DNA of 64,000 nucleotides from a virus (lineage: Duplodnaviria; Caudoviricetes). The notes below the pieces were generated by a model that did no database searches, had not been told where the DNA came from, and was given only the letters and a program-made list of their open reading frames with translations. Positions 28,882 through 54,003 of this stretch are shown piece by piece. The stretch is from IMG/VR virus record IMGVR_UViG_3300037507_002920, positions 1-64,000 of that record; one strand, given 5' to 3'. A program made the translations under genes and the position numbers. The stretch's first letter is position 1. Each line of letters opens with the position of its first letter.

Positions 28882-29082
28882 ATGATAAAAATTAACGTAA
28901 ACAAAGAAAAGGGATTAGAATCCGCCCTAAAAAAATATAAATATAGGGTACAAAAAACAAGACAAAATGAACAATTAAGAGATAGGGAAGAGTTTGTAAA
29001 ACCTTCGGTCGAAAAAAGAGACCAAATGCTTAAAGCAATTTATAGACAAAAAATGAAGAGTCAAGAAGAAAAGTCAAACTAG
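28882..29082 (+). CDS. rpsU: ribosomal protein bS21 (Bacteroidota-like)
   Basis: LESALKKYK...LRDREEFVKPSVEKR...KAIY; 66 aa, basic. Confidence 0.9.
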   Translation: MIKINVNKEKGLESALKKYKYRVQKTRQNEQLRDREEFVKPSVEKRDQMLKAIYRQKMKSQEEKSN

Positions 29083-39250: not shown

Positions 39251-39400
39251 AGTATATTTTTTTTATTTGATAATTTATCATCAAATTATACGCCATTTAT
39301 TAAAAATTGACAAATTGTCATGTTTTTTTTAAATTTAAAGTTATTTTGTCATGTATTTGTTTTTTCTTATGAAATTTCGTATATTTGTAAAAAAAAGTAT

Positions 39401-41419: not shown

Positions 41420-41460
41420 ATACCTTTACTTTTTGTAAAAGTATATATATTTATATATCA

Positions 41461-41553
41461 AATAGGAAATCTTTGCCGATTCCTCTCGTTTTAGTTAGTG
41501 GTGTTGAAACCACAAATGACCGCAACCCCCAACTCACCGTTGGGGGTTTTTTT
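41461..41553 (+). ncRNA. candidate small RNA 'A' (about 90 nt)
   Basis: TATTTAT at 41448; hairpins AGGAAAT-CTTTGCCG-ATTCCT and GTGGT-GTTGAA-ACCAC; ends in terminator CCCCCAAC-TCACC-GTTGGGGG-T7. Confidence 0.5.
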
Positions 41554-41595
41554 ATTGTGTTTTTTTTTCGTATATTTAAATTAAAAGACAAGATA

Positions 41596-49606: not shown

Positions 49607-49679
49607 GACTCTGTAGCTCAGTTGGTAGAGCAATACACTTTTAATGTATGGGTCGGCAGTTCGAACCTGCCCAGGGTCA
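49607..49679 (+). tRNA. tRNA-Lys(UUU)
   Basis: GACTCTG/CAGGGTC acceptor stem, ATACA-CTTTTAA-TGTAT anticodon arm, GTTCGAAC T-loop; no encoded CCA. Confidence 0.95.
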
Positions 49680-49697
49680 CATTAATTATGAAACAAT

Positions 49698-49771
49698 GCT
49701 CCTGTCGTCTAACTGGTTAGGACATCCCCCTTTCACGGGGAAGCTTGTGGGTTCGAGTCCCATCGGGAGTA
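49698..49771 (+). tRNA. tRNA-Glu(UUC)
   Basis: GCTCCTG/CGGGAGT acceptor stem, TCCCC-CTTTCAC-GGGGA anticodon arm, GTTCGAGT T-loop. Confidence 0.92.
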
Positions 49772-49790
49772 CTAAAAATATTTTTAAAAA

Positions 49791-50033
49791 ATGATACAAA
49801 AAATTTTAGACATCTATCCTGATGAGGATATTTTAATGGCCGACGGTTTCGACGATGCAATAATAGGTATCGAAACAAAAACAATGAGATTAATCTATTC
49901 TGTTAGTAAGTGTATTGATGTACTGACAAAACAAGGTATGAGTGAAATGGATGCCGTTGAATACTTTGAATTTAATGTTTCTGGTTCATATGTAGGAGAA
50001 AAAACACCGATATGGTGTGAAGACTATATTTAA
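49791..50033 (+). CDS. hypothetical phage protein
   Basis: 80-aa ORF (ADGFDDAIIG...EYFEFNV.GSYVGEKTP). Confidence 0.65.
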   Translation: MIQKILDIYPDEDILMADGFDDAIIGIETKTMRLIYSVSKCIDVLTKQGMSEMDAVEYFEFNVSGSYVGEKTPIWCEDYI

Positions 50034-50077
50034 TATTTGAAATCATTAGTTTTTTGTGTATCTTTATATAAAAAAAT

Positions 50078-50162
50078 GCCATCGTGTCGTAATTGGTAGC
50101 CGATACAGACTTAAACTCTGTTGGGAGTAATTCCCGTACCGGTTCGAGTCCGGTCGGTGGTA
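50078..50162 (+). tRNA. tRNA-Leu(UAA)
   Basis: GCCATCG/CGGTGGT acceptor stem, ACAGA-CTTAAAC-TCTGT anticodon arm, long variable arm GGGAGTAATTCCC. Confidence 0.93.
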
Positions 50163-50169
50163 CAAAGTT

Positions 50170-50241
50170 GGGCCCATAGTTAAAGGGATATAACCACAGA
50201 TTTCTAATCTGTTATTCCTAGTTCGAGTCTAGGTGGGCCTA
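50170..50241 (+). tRNA. tRNA-Arg(UCU)
   Basis: GGGCCCA/TGGGCCT acceptor stem, ACAGA-TTTCTAA-TCTGT anticodon arm, CTAG-TTCGAGT-CTAG T-arm. Confidence 0.93.
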
Positions 50242-50261
50242 CTATATTTATATTATAAGTT

Positions 50262-50754: not shown

Positions 50755-50844
50755 TTGACTTGTATTGATTTCTTTCGTATCTTTGTAAAAGATTTGATAC
50801 TTATGGTTTAGACCATGATTTGAAAAATCAATCGTTCTTTGAAA
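50755..50844 (+). promoter_or_regulatory. Bacteroidota sigma-A-type promoter followed by a boxA-like element
   Basis: TATCTTTG at 50778-50785 (TAnnTTTG -7 box) with TTG upstream; GTTCTTTGAAA at 50834-50844. Confidence 0.6.
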
Positions 50845-50850
50845 ATTTAA

Positions 50851-51650
50851 AAATAGGGCCGTCTATGGTCCTTAAATAAACCACGAAAGTGGTATAAAGT
50901 GACTCACTCGGTTAGATGAGTTGCGGCTTTCGAAAGAGAGCTCGAGTAGACAAACGAGATATCGTTTAACCTTGAGTAACGAGGGTGACACTGTAGTGAA
51001 AGTGGTAAAACGAATGGGGGATGCGGGTCCTTCATTTGAGGTGGGAACACCAATAAGAATAACTCGTAGGATTTATGTGAGAAACATAGTCATCCAACTA
51101 TGTAATCGCGTGATTCAATATGATGGGAATCTTAAAACCGAAAGGTATGACTTTGTACAGGTGGTGCTGTTATTGTCCTTGATTTGAACCTACCAAGGTT
51201 CTTTTCTTGAAGGAGTCCAAAAATATGGAAATCGGGAGATTTCAGAGGGTAGTTTAGTATCGTGTTGTTCAAAAGATGACATGGCTGGTCGATGAGCCAC
51301 TACCTTCATAATCCGCAAACCAAAAAACTTGTTATTTTGATTAACAAAATCTAATAAAAAGGAAAAGTGCTCATCAGTCGTCGGAAACAGGTGACTACTT
51401 AGTAATGAAACGTTCATTGCCGTAGAGGGTCCCAAGCCCGATACGATTTTTAAGAAAGTCCTCTAACCCCGCAAGGGTTAATTGGGAAGGCATTCTCGAG
51501 GAGTGATTAGTATTGAGAGAGTATCCGATGACTCAAGGATTGGTTAATCTAATTGGCCGTCACTGGTTGGTACAACTCAAAAGGTTGTGGATATAAAGGG
51601 AAACAATAATCCTTTTAAAGTCAACTAATAAAACATGTAATCTCAGTGTT
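50851..51650 (+). ncRNA. large structured ncRNA, about 800 nt, GOLLD-like
   Basis: GC content above flanks, no credible ORF, GNRA-capped stems (CCAC-GAAA-GTGG, ACC-GAAA-GGT, CCC-GCAA-GGG), beside tRNAs, ends before a T-run; ends approximate and family not confirmed. Confidence 0.65.
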
Positions 51651-51715
51651 TTTTTTTTCTTGATTTAAAATCAAGTGGTGGAGCAAAGAGTCGAAAGGCC
51701 CTCAACAATTAATTA

Positions 51716-51744
51716 AGGTTAGAAAATTCTAACCTTTTTTTTTG
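51716..51744 (+). terminator. intrinsic terminator
   Basis: AAGGTTAGAA-AA-TTCTAACCTT followed by a T tract. Confidence 0.7.
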
Positions 51745-51817
51745 CTATTTTTTTTGAAATATTGAAAACTTTTCGTATATTTATCACAAATAACAATTTT
51801 TTGTTCTTTGAAATTTT

Positions 51818-52235
51818 GGGGATGAAAGGAATCGACACACGTGTAAATGTTAAATGGGCATGCGGTCAAACATCATCTATGACCATAATCAATGATGGTA
51901 CAAATTAAGCGGCAACGTTTATAACAACATGGAAATTGCGGGTATCCTCGCTTCTTCCAAGGTAGCAGTAGCCTAGGCGAATCTATCAATGGGTCGGGAG
52001 ACAAATAACCTAGAAACAGAAGTCTTTAAGGTGTGATACAACCTAAAGTGTCAAGGGTCTCGTTCAGAGTACTACCTGTAAATCCACGAAAGTGGTAAAA
52101 GTGAATTCGACACAGTTATTGGTAACAATGTCAAAATAGGAACCATTTATTTGTCAGTTGTGAACTAATTGAATAAGCATGTAGTCCATTTATGATTTCT
52201 CGGGGTGGACGGCGGTTCAATTCCGCCCATCTCCA
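51818..52235 (+). ncRNA. ssrA: tmRNA; predicted tag (A)GNVYNNMEIAGILASSKVAVA* at 51911-51976
   Basis: 5' GGGGATGAAAGGAATCGAC; 3' GGCGGTTCAATTCCGCCCATCTCCA with Ala-type G3.U pair; TAAGC|GGC resume context. Confidence 0.9.
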
Positions 52236-52271
52236 CTGGCTAACTTTTTGTACTTTCCGATAAGTACAAAG

Positions 52272-52298
52272 AAACCCACTCACAAGGTGGGTTTTTTT
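52272..52298 (+). terminator. intrinsic terminator after tmRNA
   Basis: AAACCCAC-TCACAAG-GTGGGTTTTTTT; preceded by the hairpin TTTGTACTT-TCCGAT-AAGTACAAA. Confidence 0.8.
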
Positions 52299-52310
52299 AT
52301 TTTAAGTACA

Positions 52311-52425
52311 CAATATCTCATAAACGAACAAAGGGGTCAAATTGACCCCTTTGCCGAGATATTGAACCCCTCCTTTCGTTTTATTAGTTTATTATCTCAT
52401 GGTGACCAAACCATTTGACTCTAAA
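52311..52425 (-). ncRNA. candidate small RNA 'B' containing an extended Shine-Dalgarno sequence
   Basis: minus-strand TATTTAT at 52427-52433; GAAAGGAGGGGTTC; hairpin CAAAGGGGTCAA-T-TTGACCCCTTTG; shares blocks with 41461-41520. Confidence 0.5.
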
Positions 52426-52448
52426 CATAAATATTTCGTATTTTAATT

Positions 52449-53375
52449 TTAAGCAATAAATTTTGCTAAATATTTTAACATAAATAAATTCATTGCACCA
52501 CCTAACATTCCTCCACCATCATCGGTAGATGGTTGTTGACCCCCACCAAAATCTTGTGGGGTTGAATTTTGGGCAATAAAATTACTTGTTGTAGGGTCTT
52601 CAGCTAATTTATTTAAGTTATTCTCATCTTTCATCCAATTATCAAGTGAAGCGATGTTAGGTATTCCAAATTTACCCAATAAATTGTTGGCAATTAAAAA
52701 TTTAGAAAACGCCAATCTTCTATCTCTTCTTGCTAAAACATTTTGCCACCACCTTGATAATGCGTTTGATGGTAACATTCCATTTTTAGCAAAATACTTT
52801 GATAGTCTTTGTCCTTGAAAATATCCTTTAAGACCACCCGCAAATGATTTACCCGCAGATAACGATTTAACACCCGCCTCTAAACCTTTACCAACTTGAC
52901 CGGTATATTTTACCGATATATTTTTTAATGTGTCTAAACCACCTTGTAAACCTCTTCCCCATCCTTTGTTTACATTTGATATTTTTGACACGGTTTGAGT
53001 TACTCTTGGGTCAGAAGCGTATTGTGCTAAATCTTTAAATTTATTGGCCAATTGCGGATTTTTAGCGAGGTATTCACCCAACTTAGGTCCACCTGTTGTT
53101 AATAATTTTGGTGCCCCTTTAAATGCGAATAAAATGGGTTTAACAAGTAAATCACCAACTGTGGGGATTAATGCAACCAACGTCAAAGCTGCTTTAAGAC
53201 GTTCACCCCTCATAATATATCTTATTATTGAAATGATATCCGCAATTTCACCAATCACAGGTATGAATCCCGCGGCTAAAAGTACGTTTTCAGTATCTAA
53301 TATTCCCTCATTTAAGTGAGAATCGTTTTTCTTACTTTTAGTTATTTCTAATATTTGTTTTTTCGTAAGTTCCAT
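52449..53375 (-). CDS. protein with pre-toxin TG-like motif and G/A-rich amphipathic helices
   Basis: AAGFIPVIGEIADII...ALTLVALIPTVGD; probable start MELTKKQ at 53375. Confidence 0.55.
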   Translation of the reverse strand: MELTKKQILEITKSKKNDSHLNEGILDTENVLLAAGFIPVIGEIADIISIIRYIMRGERLKAALTLVALIPTVGDLLVKPILFAFKGAPKLLTTGGPKLGEYLAKNPQLANKFKDLAQYASDPRVTQTVSKISNVNKGWGRGLQGGLDTLKNISVKYTGQVGKGLEAGVKSLSAGKSFAGGLKGYFQGQRLSKYFAKNGMLPSNALSRWWQNVLARRDRRLAFSKFLIANNLLGKFGIPNIASLDNWMKDENNLNKLAEDPTTSNFIAQNSTPQDFGGGQQPSTDDGGGMLGGAMNLFMLKYLAKFIA

Positions 53376-53376
53376 A

Positions 53377-54003
53377 TCAATGTATAAATTCACAAAATCT
53401 TTTAGATATTTTTTCACCTAAGTCCGATTCTTTAATTATTTCACCAAACAAATTACCTGCGGTTGTTGATACAACATCTCTAATTGCAGTATTACCACCT
53501 TGTCCCAAATTTCTAATTGGATTTAAATCGTATGTATTGGAGTCTACACCCGTAGCACCGGCAGCAAGATATCTAACCACTTGTTCTAAAAGAGTATCAA
53601 CTATCTCAGGAAAACCACTATTACATTCAGAGGGTCCTTTGAATATTTTTATAAGATTTAAAGGATTCATATCCGCAAGTGTTCTTGATAAAAACGTTGC
53701 GGCATTTGGACCAACACTAAAAACTTGGGTTAAAATAAACCTAATTGCATATTCTTTTCCTGAATTTACTGCCGCATCGGAAAGTGCTCCTTTCCAATCA
53801 ATACTATTTAATTTATCTTTTATTCCTGTTGATTCAATTTCTTCCAAAGAATATCCTTCTTCCAATAATTTAGAACAAGTTAAAAAGTATTTTTCAACAA
53901 AATAATTGTCATCCCTAATGTCTTCTAATTCATTCAAAGACGTGGTTAACTTTTGTTGACGCTCCTCAACTAAACTCTTTTTTATTTTATTTCTAATATC
54001 CAT
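53377..54003 (-). CDS. hypothetical protein
   Basis: 208-aa ORF in the co-oriented cluster. Confidence 0.6.
   Translation of the reverse strand: MDIRNKIKKSLVEERQQKLTTSLNELEDIRDDNYFVEKYFLTCSKLLEEGYSLEEIESTGIKDKLNSIDWKGALSDAAVNSGKEYAIRFILTQVFSVGPNAATFLSRTLADMNPLNLIKIFKGPSECNSGFPEIVDTLLEQVVRYLAAGATGVDSNTYDLNPIRNLGQGGNTAIRDVVSTTAGNLFGEIIKESDLGEKISKRFCEFIH

What the first reader, a model, noticed from the sequence alone, without database searches (positions are those of the whole stretch)
52358..52385. Element B carries a 13/14 match to the Bacteroidota 16S rRNA 3' tail: possible anti-SD sponge or mimic linked to phage bS21
Seen: + strand GAACCCCTCCTTTC at 52364-52377. Known: Bacteroidota 16S rRNA ends ...GGAACACCUCCUUUCU (from memory), and this anti-SD is normally occluded by bS21, bS18 and bS6. 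Host rpsU mRNA is one of the few with a strong SD, used for autoregulation. On the - strand this reads GAAAGGAGGGGUUC, an extended SD with no AUG at a usable spacing and the only strong SD I noticed in the window. Inference: RNA B captures 30S subunits with an exposed anti-SD (bS21-free). If read on +, it would mimic the 16S tail and could mask SD-led host mRNAs such as rpsU. With phage bS21 and RNA A, this may be an undescribed ribosome-remodelling circuit.
Basis: partly seen in the sequence, partly recalled or inferred. Interest (0 to 1): 0.85.

Follow-up and report, generated by a model that had tools for sequence, protein, structure and literature searches.

The report
Start-less ribosome-site mimic RNA in phage
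A giant freshwater phage that carries its own ribosomal protein bS21 also keeps a conserved small RNA gene holding a copy of the unusually long ribosome-docking signal that its hosts use on their own bS21 gene, but with no start codon or protein behind it, so it probably acts as a decoy in the fight over the host ribosome.

Summary
The 14-mer is real (52364-52377). It matches the Flavobacteriales 16S 3' end at 13 of 14 positions, checked against tool-fetched 16S ends. In this one genome it is not beyond chance: AGGAGG occurs 13 times, which I estimate composition alone would give, and the 16S-pairing energy is tied with another site.

Comparison settles it. Read on the minus strand, the word sits in a ~107-nt element (52319-52425). 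The parts are a phage promoter box, a covarying hairpin with an invariant loop, the Shine-Dalgarno (SD) box and a second hairpin. I found 70 distinct versions in 124 related loci. It was more conserved than the adjacent gene in 11 of 11 loci compared. No Rfam family fits and no ORF follows.

- 54 of 70 boxes have 12-15 contiguous complements to one of two Bacteroidota 16S tail types.
- The word equals the extended SD of some host rpsU leaders.
- All 15 large element-bearing phage records that could be searched encode bS21.
- A second conserved phage RNA, element A, is complementary to the box.

Best reading, inferred and untested: a start-less rpsU-SD mimic acting on the bS21/anti-SD node. The plus-strand "16S mimic" reading of B is not supported. 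This scan reached the same reading earlier on other genomes (e1-5732323, e1-5732334).

The parts
52427..52435 (-). Promoter-type box AATATTTAT just upstream of the element
   Evidence: [GA]ATATTTAT occurs 32 times in the 107-kb record. About half of these lie 4-18 nt before the ATG of an ORF of 80 aa or more. The same box, GATATTTAT, stands at the same place in the homologous elements.
52319..52425 (-). Element B: conserved small-RNA gene, matched full length by the covariance model
   Evidence: Model R1 scores 114.6 bits (E 8.8e-21). It is the only strong hit in the own genome; the next best is 23 bits. There are 35 full and 2 truncated hits in 74 related loci, and 19 of 57 IMG/VR loci are hit.
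52394..52419 (-). Hairpin 1: covarying stem (52411-52419 with 52394-52402) and invariant 8-nt loop TTTGGTCA (52403-52410)
   Evidence: Alignment A2. Five of the 9 stem pairs show changes on both sides.
52364..52377 (-). The finding's 14-mer. GAAAGGAGG (52369-52377) is the conserved extended SD box, and GGTTC (52364-52368) is the flank that continues the complementarity to the 16S tail after one mismatch.
   Evidence: The box columns are invariant or nearly invariant in 27 aligned sequences.
52356..52360 (-). Invariant ATCTC. RNAalifold pairs its TCTC with GAGG of the box in a weak 4-bp helix.
   Evidence: 99% of cells pair, but no pair changes on both sides.
52327..52355 (-). Hairpin 2, terminator-like: 12-bp stem, loop AATTT, then the tail TTCGTTTAT
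   Evidence: Four of the 12 pairs change on both sides and 97.4% of cells pair. The simple terminator scan did not call it.
52311..52319 (-). 3' arm of a clade-specific outer helix (GAGATATTG, pairing with CAATATCTC at 52356-52364)
   Evidence: Folds. It is not a family-wide feature.
52268..52298 (.). Two-way terminator hairpin shared with the tmRNA gene. It is a possible 3' end of a longer form of B.
41458..41550 (+). Element A: a second conserved small RNA with its own promoter-type box and a strong terminator. Its 5' part is complementary to the B box and to the start of B's hairpin 2.
28882..29082 (+). Phage bS21 gene, with no SD in front
   Evidence: PF01165, 32 bits, above the family cut-off. 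Upstream sequence read.
52449..53417 (-). Upstream neighbour gene, a hypothetical protein (P0001). Homologues start at its Met15. B follows its stop codon.
51818..52238 (+). Phage tmRNA gene, convergent with B
   Evidence: A convergent tmRNA gene follows B in 10 of 35 element-bearing loci.

Best explanation
Element B is a small-RNA gene of the roughly 300-kb freshwater 'bS21 phages' of Bacteroidota. It is transcribed from the minus strand, starting at its own phage-type promoter box.

The RNA has these parts:
- a 5' hairpin with an invariant loop;
- an A-rich linker;
- an extended Shine-Dalgarno word, ACGAAAGGAGG plus a flank;
- a stable hairpin.

There is no start codon and no conserved reading frame.

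The word is the one Bacteroidota hosts reserve for their own bS21 gene, rpsU. According to PMC9976891, only ribosomes that lack bS21 and so have a free 16S tail read it.

Most likely mechanism (inferred): B is a start-less mimic of the rpsU ribosome-binding site. It pairs with the 16S 3' tail of bS21-free 30S subunits and competes with host rpsU mRNA. This interferes with the host's bS21 autoregulation while the phage supplies its own SD-less bS21. The partner RNA A, complementary to the same box, either tunes B or masks the host rpsU SD directly.

Shown here: the gene, its strand, its structure, its conservation, the complementarities and the co-occurrence.

Inferred: transcription, ribosome binding and any effect on rpsU.
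For: Conservation
- The element follows the stop codon of P0001 homologues in 37 of 74 metagenome loci (35 full, 2 cut) and in 19 of 57 IMG/VR loci.
- 72 IMG/VR contigs match a motif pattern for it.
- There are 70 distinct versions from 124 loci.
- It is more conserved than the neighbouring gene in 11 of 11 comparisons, 78-97% against 61-85% nt identity.

Strand and structure
- 91.4% of cells pair, against 43-58% in slid controls.
- 9 pairs, covering 35 cells, change on both sides; 0 of 500 shuffles reach the 35 cells and 4 of 500 reach the 9 pairs.
- 90.0% of cells pair on this strand against 75.3% on the other, with 83 G-U cells.
- The promoter box is shared with about 16 phage genes.

The box
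- Its columns are invariant or nearly invariant.
- 54 of 70 versions have 12-15 contiguous Watson-Crick complements to the AAC or AAT tail type. None has more than 10 to the ATC type.
- The flank falls into classes (TGTT., TATT.) that differ at the position where the two tail types differ.

Host rpsU leaders
- 6 of 35 sampled leaders carry the same word, including its non-pairing 5' ACG. Two more are close variants.
- PMC7797042 used AGAAAGGAGGU as its SD oligo.

No coding potential
- There is no start codon at usable spacing.
- Frames differ between versions (sequences).

Other points
- 15 of 15 searchable large element-bearing records encode bS21.
- In this window's own B, the centroid fold leaves the box unpaired.
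- PMC9976891 describes rpsU autoregulation and speculates that it is a counter-defence against phage bS21 (passages).
Against: - No expression evidence. Contigs of four metatranscriptome studies cover the neighbouring GOLLD RNA and tmRNA but not B. That is uninformative for a ~100-nt RNA.
- The co-occurrence with bS21 is confounded by descent. All element-bearing records belong to one phage lineage, and no near-complete relative without the element could be assessed.
- By pairing energy alone the box is not unique in this genome. It ties at -21.1 with a site at 104196 (+), and another site scores -20.6.
- Across the family the box is only about 42% unpaired in predicted ensembles, because of the weak GAGG/TCTC helix.
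- The same box is also the pairing site for RNA A. Its conservation could therefore be explained without the ribosome.
- The window's own version has a mismatch opposite A1534.
- Wild-type Flavobacterium 30S subunits do not bind SD oligos (PMC7797042 abstract). A target population of bS21-free subunits has to be assumed.
- The hosts of individual phages are unknown, so the match between flank class and host tail type is untested.
Confidence: 0.45

Rival explanations
1. B and A are an sRNA and anti-sRNA pair. The conserved box is chiefly the A-binding site. Either A is the effector, for example an antisense RNA that masks the SD of host rpsU mRNA, and B is its sponge or timer, or the roles are reversed. 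B itself would not touch the ribosome.
For: - A is a conserved RNA. 14 of the 27 short pattern matches printed are A-like, each with a promoter box and a strong terminator.
- BLAST finds homologues in 10 of 16 related records, always about 11-13 kb from bS21.
- The reverse complement of A's 5' part reads like B's box and the start of hairpin 2.
- By eye, A and B from the same genome co-vary. B has a run of four A where A has four T (G407, G408, G410) and three where A has three (G405, G411, G414). In G407 the second block changes on both sides.
- A's complement also equals the ACGAGAGGA word of several host rpsU leaders.
Against: - The A-B local alignment alone is weak. 17 of 5599 genome windows score as well.
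- The covariance model for B does not hit A.
- A is not complementary to B's 3' flank, and that flank is the part that tracks the 16S tail types.
- In the window, G413, G417 and G412, the A-B duplex has 1-2 mismatches in the box.
- A was not found in 5 of the 16 records; a sixth gave only a marginal 27-nt match.
Confidence: 0.3
2. B is a cis-acting 3' untranslated element of the upstream gene, serving as terminator and stability hairpins. The SD-like word is an incidental purine run that competes with, or supports, the terminator stem.
For: - It always begins within about 30 nt of the stop codon of the P0001 homologue.
- Hairpin 2 looks like a terminator.
- The purine box resembles the 5' arm of hairpin 2, so it could pair with the 3' arm instead.
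Against: - A promoter-type box lies between the stop codon and the element in every clade.
- A related clade of P0001 homologues lacks the element altogether: 38 of 57 IMG/VR loci have no hit.
- A terminator does not need an invariant loop, an invariant ATCTC, or 12-15 nt of complementarity to the 16S tail.
- The element is more conserved than the gene it would serve.
Confidence: 0.08
3. The box is an ordinary ribosome-binding site for a tiny peptide that starts at a non-AUG codon, for example the ATC of the invariant ATCTC, 8 nt downstream.
For: - ATC stands 6-11 nt after the box in all versions.
- In many versions a stop codon falls in the loop of hairpin 2.
Against: - In versions such as L037, L048 and L061 the frame runs on for 20 or more codons (sequences).
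- The 'codons' change through compensatory stem substitutions that alter the residues.
- These phages and their hosts do not otherwise use SDs (PMC7797042).
- ATC is a poor start codon.
Confidence: 0.05
4. Plus-strand reading: B is transcribed on the + strand as a mimic of the 16S 3' tail and masks SD-led host mRNAs.
For: - The + strand word is 13 of 14 identical to the Flavobacteriales tail.
- A TTCGTAT-type box lies at 52435 (+).
Against: - Helices pair worse on the + strand, 75.3% against 90.0%.
- The conserved promoter box and the hairpin-plus-T tail fit the minus strand.
- On the + strand the element would run antisense into the neighbouring gene with no terminator.
Confidence: 0.03
5. 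A chance SD-like word with no function.
For: The statistics within this one genome are unremarkable.
Against: The word is conserved in 70 distinct homologous elements, even where the neighbouring protein is only 30-50% identical.
Confidence: 0.01

Closest known systems
Extended Shine-Dalgarno initiation region of rpsU (bS21 autoregulation) in Flavobacteriales and other Bacteroidia (PMC7797042, PMC9976891; passages read)
   Same: - It uses the same word. ACGA[AG]AGGAGGT[AG]T is found in 6 of 35 sampled host rpsU leaders.
- It has the same long complementarity to the 16S 3' tail: up to 13 bp in hosts according to the paper, and 12-15 nt here.
   Different: - No start codon and no rpsU ORF follow.
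- It is embedded between two conserved hairpins, has its own phage promoter, and is encoded by a phage.
- The phage's own bS21 gene has no SD.
Phage- or prophage-encoded sponge RNAs and anti-sRNAs, such as AgvB against GcvB in EHEC prophages (recalled from memory; no paper read here)
   Same: A mobile-element RNA carries a copy of a host target site and acts by titration. Here there is also a complementary partner RNA, element A.
   Different: The mimicked site is a ribosome-binding signal and the presumed partner is rRNA. No chaperone or target has been shown, and nothing has been tested.
GOLLD RNA (RF02032) and phage tmRNA, which are neighbours in the same non-coding island
   Same: They are phage-borne non-coding RNA genes in one cluster. 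tRNAs, GOLLD, tmRNA and B lie within 3 kb.
   Different: B matches neither model. No Rfam family reaches its gathering score on 52240-52470; the best is Trp_leader at 27.7 against 41 bits, a match driven by the hairpins.
Type I toxin-antitoxin and antisense-controlled leaders, in which an SD is sequestered and an antisense RNA binds the initiation region (recalled from memory)
   Same: There is a strong SD, partly masked by local pairing, and a separate RNA complementary to it.
   Different: No toxin ORF follows the SD, and the two RNAs lie 11 kb apart.

Membership tests
Any Rfam 15 family | Covariance-model score at or above the family's gathering score | tested here: not met
   The whole-window scan at gathering threshold finds only GOLLD, tmRNA and 4 tRNAs. 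The permissive scan of 52240-52470 gives at best Trp_leader at 27.7 against 41 bits.
rpsU-type extended SD initiation region | Long complementarity to the 16S 3' tail (nt ~1530-1544) | tested here: met
   The window has 9+4 of 14. 54 of 70 family members have 12-15 contiguous Watson-Crick pairs to the AAC or AAT tail type.
rpsU-type extended SD initiation region | A start codon about 10-12 nt downstream, opening the rpsU (or any conserved) ORF | tested here: not met
   No ATG, GTG or TTG lies 3-12 nt after the box. There is no conserved frame. Host leaders have ATG at 10-12 nt.
rpsU-type extended SD initiation region | Preferential use by ribosomes that lack bS21 | not testable with these tools
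   This needs 30S binding or reporter assays.
Trans-acting small RNA gene | Own promoter, conserved structure supported by covariation, and no coding potential | tested here: met
   Promoter box. Covariation in two hairpins. No conserved ORF.
Trans-acting small RNA gene | A detected transcript with defined ends | tested here: inconclusive
   Contigs of four RNA studies do not cover B. Contigs cannot show absence, and short RNAs are usually lost.
Intrinsic terminator (hairpin 2) | A G+C-rich stem-loop followed directly by a run of U | tested here: inconclusive
   A 12-bp stem is supported, but the tail TTCGTTTAT is interrupted and the scan did not list it. A second terminator lies 30 nt further on.
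sRNA and anti-sRNA (sponge) pair, B with A | Extended complementarity between two separately transcribed RNAs, kept through evolution | tested here: inconclusive
   Complementary blocks and co-variation were seen by eye in 9 genomes plus the window.
16S 3'-tail mimic (plus-strand RNA) | Transcribed in the sense that carries the CCTCC word | tested here: not met
   The structure and the promoter and terminator logic fit the minus strand.

The most novel reading that the evidence does not exclude
The bS21 phages run a two-RNA circuit aimed at the one SD/anti-SD interaction their hosts still use.
- B is a start-less copy of the host rpsU ribosome-binding site. It captures the freed 16S tail of bS21-less 30S subunits.
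- A is a pyrimidine-rich RNA that can mask the rpsU SD or neutralise B.
- Together they shut off re-synthesis of host bS21, so that the phage's own SD-less bS21 takes over the ribosome.

This would be the first RNA known to act as a decoy for the anti-Shine-Dalgarno tail of the ribosome. It would also explain mechanistically why these phages carry bS21.
Probability: 0.3. Interest if true: 0.92.

Novelty: new variant of a known kind. Interest (0 to 1): 0.8.

Why it matters
bS21 is the ribosomal protein that phages carry most often, and why they carry it is an open question (PMC9723584, PMC9976891).

In Bacteroidia the 16S anti-SD tail is locked away by bS21, and reportedly the only mRNA that uses it is rpsU itself. 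The phages that carry bS21 also keep a protein-less RNA holding exactly that rpsU signal, together with a complementary partner RNA. This points to a concrete way of taking over the ribosome, and one that can be tested.

The needed tools exist. According to PMC9976891, Flavobacterium johnsoniae strains with mutated or depleted bS21, rpsU'-gfp reporters and 30S binding assays are already published.

Even if the ribosome model fails, B and A are two new, widespread RNA families. B was found in at least 72 IMG/VR contigs, in phage records of up to 324 kb.

Tried and rejected
Expression. The look-up of sequencing runs and read laying on four metatranscriptome runs from four studies gave contigs over GOLLD (50874-51646) and tmRNA (51832-52201), and none over 52256-52437. 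This is no evidence either way for a ~100-nt RNA.

Closing helix. In single folds, the box or its flank pairs with a word just after hairpin 2 in several clades. An own-versus-cross duplex test on 27 sequences gave no signal: own mean -7.02, cross mean -7.17, and 3506 of 5000 permutations were at least as good. I keep it only as a clade-specific feature. The test window also cut off the arm that the window's own clade uses.

Micro-ORF in hairpin 1 ([AT]TG GTT TGG TC[AG] CC.). Rejected. L024 has no start there, the tails vary from 5 to over 30 codons, and the stem covaries.

Loop of hairpin 1 pairing with hairpin 2, tmRNA or the 16S end. Only short matches seen by eye, not followed up.

Phage database. 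There was no blastn hit for 51200-53500. The exact 22-mer is not in IMG/VR. The single IMG/VR relative found with the lone protein (L002) has no synteny downstream.

Host homologue. R1 found nothing in 150 Bacteroidota genomes, but only 25 candidates per genome were scored.

bS21 in relatives that lack the element. 11 records were searched, 10 of them fragments estimated 3-27% complete. The one near-complete record (G426) has bS21, but its P0001 homologue is cut by the contig end, so the site of B lies off the contig. This is uninformative.

Finding bS21 relatives in genome contigs gave nothing.

Literature. No description of this RNA was found with searches. The main text of PMC9723584 has 0 occurrences of tmRNA, small RNA, non-coding or motif. 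Supplements were closed. Supplementary Figure S7 and Table S1 of PMC9976891 (rpsU extended SDs, extended ASDs) and the supplementary tables of PMC9723584 may bear on host tail types, and I did not see them.
Full report
WHAT IS AT THE COORDINATES

The + strand reads GAACCCCTCCTTTC at 52364-52377. The - strand reads GAAAGGAGGGGTTC.

The window is the first 64 kb of a 107,216-nt IMG/VR virus record. It has 30% G+C and CheckV puts it at 32% complete. That makes it a fragment of a roughly 300-kb phage.

The word lies in a non-coding island. The parts are:
- four tRNAs (49607-50242);
- a GOLLD RNA (Rfam hit 51245-51649, 314.5 bits);
- a tmRNA gene (51818-52238, +) with its terminator (52268-52298);
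- the 3' end of a minus-strand ORF (52449-53417, P0001).

A bS21 gene lies at 28882-29082 (+). It scores 32 bits against PF01165, above the cut-off, and has no SD in front.

IS THE WORD MORE THAN CHANCE IN THIS GENOME? NO.

- With up to two mismatches the 14-mer is expected 0.20 times, and 18 of 100 shuffles have a match.
- AGGAGG occurs 13 times on both strands of the 107-kb record. My own estimate from base composition is about 13. Nearly all copies lie inside coding sequence, and the phage's genes have no SDs.
- I scanned 42,876 30-nt windows for duplex energy with two Bacteroidota 16S tails. B comes first at -21.1 kcal/mol (mean -4.93, sd 2.67). It ties with a site at 104196 (+), and 4446 (-) follows at -20.6.

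IS THE 16S COMPARISON RIGHT? YES.

PMC7797042 prints ACCUCCUUUCU as the tail-sense control oligo and AGAAAGGAGGU as the SD oligo. I joined an anchor from the methods of PMC9976891 to that tail word and fetched 16S ends.
- Ten of ten Flavobacteriales-named loci end GGAACACCTCCTTTCT.
- Sphingobacterium ends GGAATACC... and Prevotella GGATCACC....
- Of 401 Bacteroidota genomes, 98 matched. By my count 32 are AAC, 6 AAT and 60 ATC, with no other type.

The window's word is therefore 13 of 14 identical to the Flavobacteriales tail.

COMPARISON WITH RELATIVES DECIDES THE MATTER

A conserved element follows the stop codon directly in many loci. Twenty-seven distinct complete versions align over 121 columns with 75% mean identity. 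In order, the element contains:
- a GATATTTAT box;
- hairpin 1, with an invariant loop GTTTGGTC;
- GATAA;
- an A-rich linker;
- AAACGAAAGGAGG;
- an invariant ATCTC;
- hairpin 2;
- TTCGTT.

A covariance model built on this alignment (R1) gave these results:
- One strong hit in the own genome, 52319-52425 (-), at 114.6 bits. The next best is 23 bits.
- 35 full and 2 truncated hits in 74 loci, all in the same place and orientation.
- Hits in 19 of 57 IMG/VR loci holding a P0001 homologue.

A motif pattern finds 72 IMG/VR contigs, many of them 200-324 kb long. In all I count 70 distinct versions from 124 loci. The element is better conserved than the adjacent protein gene in 11 of 11 comparisons, 78-97% against 61-85% nt identity.

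The core GAAAGGAGG is conserved even where the neighbouring protein is only 30-50% identical. The only variants are GG[AG]GG and three or four A.

STRAND AND STRUCTURE

For hairpin 1, hairpin 2 and a small GAGG/TCTC helix:
- 91.4% of cells pair, against 43-58% when the partners are slid.
- Nine pairs, covering 35 cells, change on both sides; 0 of 500 shuffles reach the 35 cells and 4 of 500 reach the nine pairs.

For the two hairpins alone, 484 of 538 cells (90.0%) pair on the window's minus strand, including 83 G-U cells. On the plus strand 405 of 538 (75.3%) would pair.

The box [GA]ATATTTAT occurs 32 times in the record. About 16 copies lie 4-18 nt before the ATG of an ORF of 80 aa or more. 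B carries one at 52427-52435 (-), so it has the look of an independent transcription unit.

The window's own B folds with a z-score of -3.45 as a 97-nt form and -4.63 as a 150-nt form. The box is unpaired in the centroid of both. Across the family the box is on average 42% unpaired. The reason is the weak GAGG/TCTC helix, which is conserved but shows no compensatory change. Whether the RNA ends at hairpin 2 or at the next terminator is open, since the simple scan does not call hairpin 2 a terminator.

NO KNOWN FAMILY, NO ORF

No Rfam family reaches its threshold. The best is Trp_leader at 27.7 against 41 bits, a hairpin artefact. No ATG, GTG or TTG lies 3-12 nt after the box. Frames opened at ATC, or inside hairpin 1, are not conserved.

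WHAT THE BOX RESEMBLES

First, the 16S tail. Of the 70 versions, 54 have 12-15 contiguous Watson-Crick complements to the AAC or AAT tail type, and none has more than 10 to the ATC type. The flank after GGAGG falls mainly into two classes:
- TGTT[CT], which complements ..AACA.. of the Flavobacteriales type;
- TAT[TC]C, which complements ..GGAATA.. of the Sphingobacterium type.

The two classes differ at the position where the two tails differ. Six distinct versions, among them those of L010, L014, L048 and L049, are a perfect 15-nt complement of the AAT-type tail. The window's clade has GGTTC, which gives 9 + 4 pairs around a mismatch at A1534.

Second, the host rpsU leader. In 35 rpsU loci sampled from Bacteroidota genomes:
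- 6 carry ACGA[AG]AGGAGGT[AG]T, with an ATG 10-12 nt later;
- 2 carry close variants.

The Sphingobacterium leader shares 14 letters with the B consensus. These include the 5' ACG, which does not pair with the tail.

PMC9976891 (abstract and passages) reports the following:
- rpsU is essentially the only gene with such an extended SD;
- ribosomes lacking bS21 translate it;
- this autoregulation might be a counter-defence against phage bS21, which the authors offer as speculation.

So B looks like a start-less copy of that signal.

LINK TO bS21

Of 20 large element-bearing IMG/VR records, 15 were held, and all 15 encode bS21 above the Pfam cut-off. This is a lineage property. The records fit the phage group of PMC9723584: 293-331 kb, 31-34% G+C, freshwater, with Bacteroidetes hosts predicted. 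That paper's main text does not mention such RNAs.

I could not obtain a complete relative without B. The 11 records of the sister clade are fragments, apart from one that is cut at the site. The co-occurrence therefore carries little independent weight.

ELEMENT A

On its own its alignment to B is weak: score 35, and 17 of 5599 genome windows score as well. R1 does not hit it.

A is nevertheless a conserved RNA.
- 14 of the 27 short pattern matches I printed share its whole architecture: promoter box, pyrimidine block, hairpin and strong terminator.
- BLAST finds it in 10 of 16 related records at 69-89% identity, always about 11-13 kb from bS21.

A's 5' part is the reverse complement of B's AAAACGA.AGGA.. 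word and of the start of hairpin 2.

By eye, A and B from the same genome change together.
- In G407, G408 and G410 there are four A in B and four T in A.
- In G405, G411 and G414 there are three and three.
- In G407 the second block changes on both sides.
- The window, G413 and G417 have one mismatch, and G412 has two.

A's complement also equals the ACGAGAGGA word of several host rpsU leaders.

READING

Settled:
- B is a real, conserved small-RNA gene on the minus strand and belongs to no described family.
- It has a start-less extended SD word as its most conserved single-stranded part.
- It is complementary both to Bacteroidota 16S tails and to a second phage RNA.

Inferred, at about 0.45: B acts as a mimic or decoy of the rpsU ribosome-binding site on the bS21/anti-SD node. 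The main rival, at about 0.3, is that the box serves chiefly the A-B pairing and the ribosome is not involved. The two are not exclusive.

The cis-element, tiny-ORF, plus-strand and chance readings are each weak, for the reasons given under the rivals.

EARLIER NOTES OF THIS SCAN

Two follow-up reports on other genomes (e1-5732323, e1-5732334) describe the same kind of RNA and reach the same reading. I saw them only, after my own analysis. They are not independent evidence.

Noticed in passing
window 50874-51646 (+): The GOLLD RNA appears to be about 773 nt long, roughly twice the Rfam hit (51245-51649). Metatranscriptome contigs from four studies cover 50874-51646 at high word depth. One contig spans 772 nt, and another ends at 51646 and runs into adapter sequence. 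So this phage's GOLLD is abundant in river and lake RNA.
   Followed up: partly
window 51818-52238 (+); L003, L004, L005, L008, L030, L047, L052, L053, L072, L073: The phage tmRNA carries an unusually long tag as ARAGORN reads it (GNVYNNME.AG.LA.SKVA..). Near-identical tags are called in 9 of the 10 related loci where ARAGORN finds a tmRNA; L047 is read with a short tag, ATSNVAVA. The tmRNA gene lies convergent to B in 10 of 35 element-bearing loci.
   Followed up: partly
window 41458-41550 (+); L338, L341, L350, L356, L360, L366, L373, L375, L378-L381, L389, L391, L422-L431: Element A is a conserved small-RNA family of its own. It has a promoter box, a pyrimidine-rich 5' block, a hairpin and a strong terminator, and it keeps its position about 11-13 kb from bS21. 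It deserves its own covariance model.
   Followed up: partly
whole record G000; for example window 6318, 20457 (+) and 56917, 49516, 38845, 6304 (-): [GA]ATATTTAT is a phage promoter-type box placed only 4-18 nt before start codons, so many mRNAs would have very short, SD-less leaders. A related box, TTCGTAT[AT]TT, occurs 5 times, all on the + strand. It lies ahead of bS21 (28858) and tmRNA (51772), and also at 39376, at 41567 just after A, and at 52435 beside B. A shorter form, TTTCGTAT, stands at 50773, about 100 nt before the start of the GOLLD transcript.
   Followed up: partly
G000 103-106 kb (outside the window): There is a cluster of repeated terminator-like words and several GGAGGT or GGTGGGTGTTCC words. 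These pair with the 16S tail almost as well as B does (104196 + at -21.1; 103386 - at -19.6). I did not examine them.
   Followed up: no
L015-L043 and others (sister clade of P0001 homologues): About half of the P0001 homologues have a different, longer C-terminus. They are followed by another gene instead of B, and upstream they have only a terminator plus the GATATTTAT box.
   Followed up: partly
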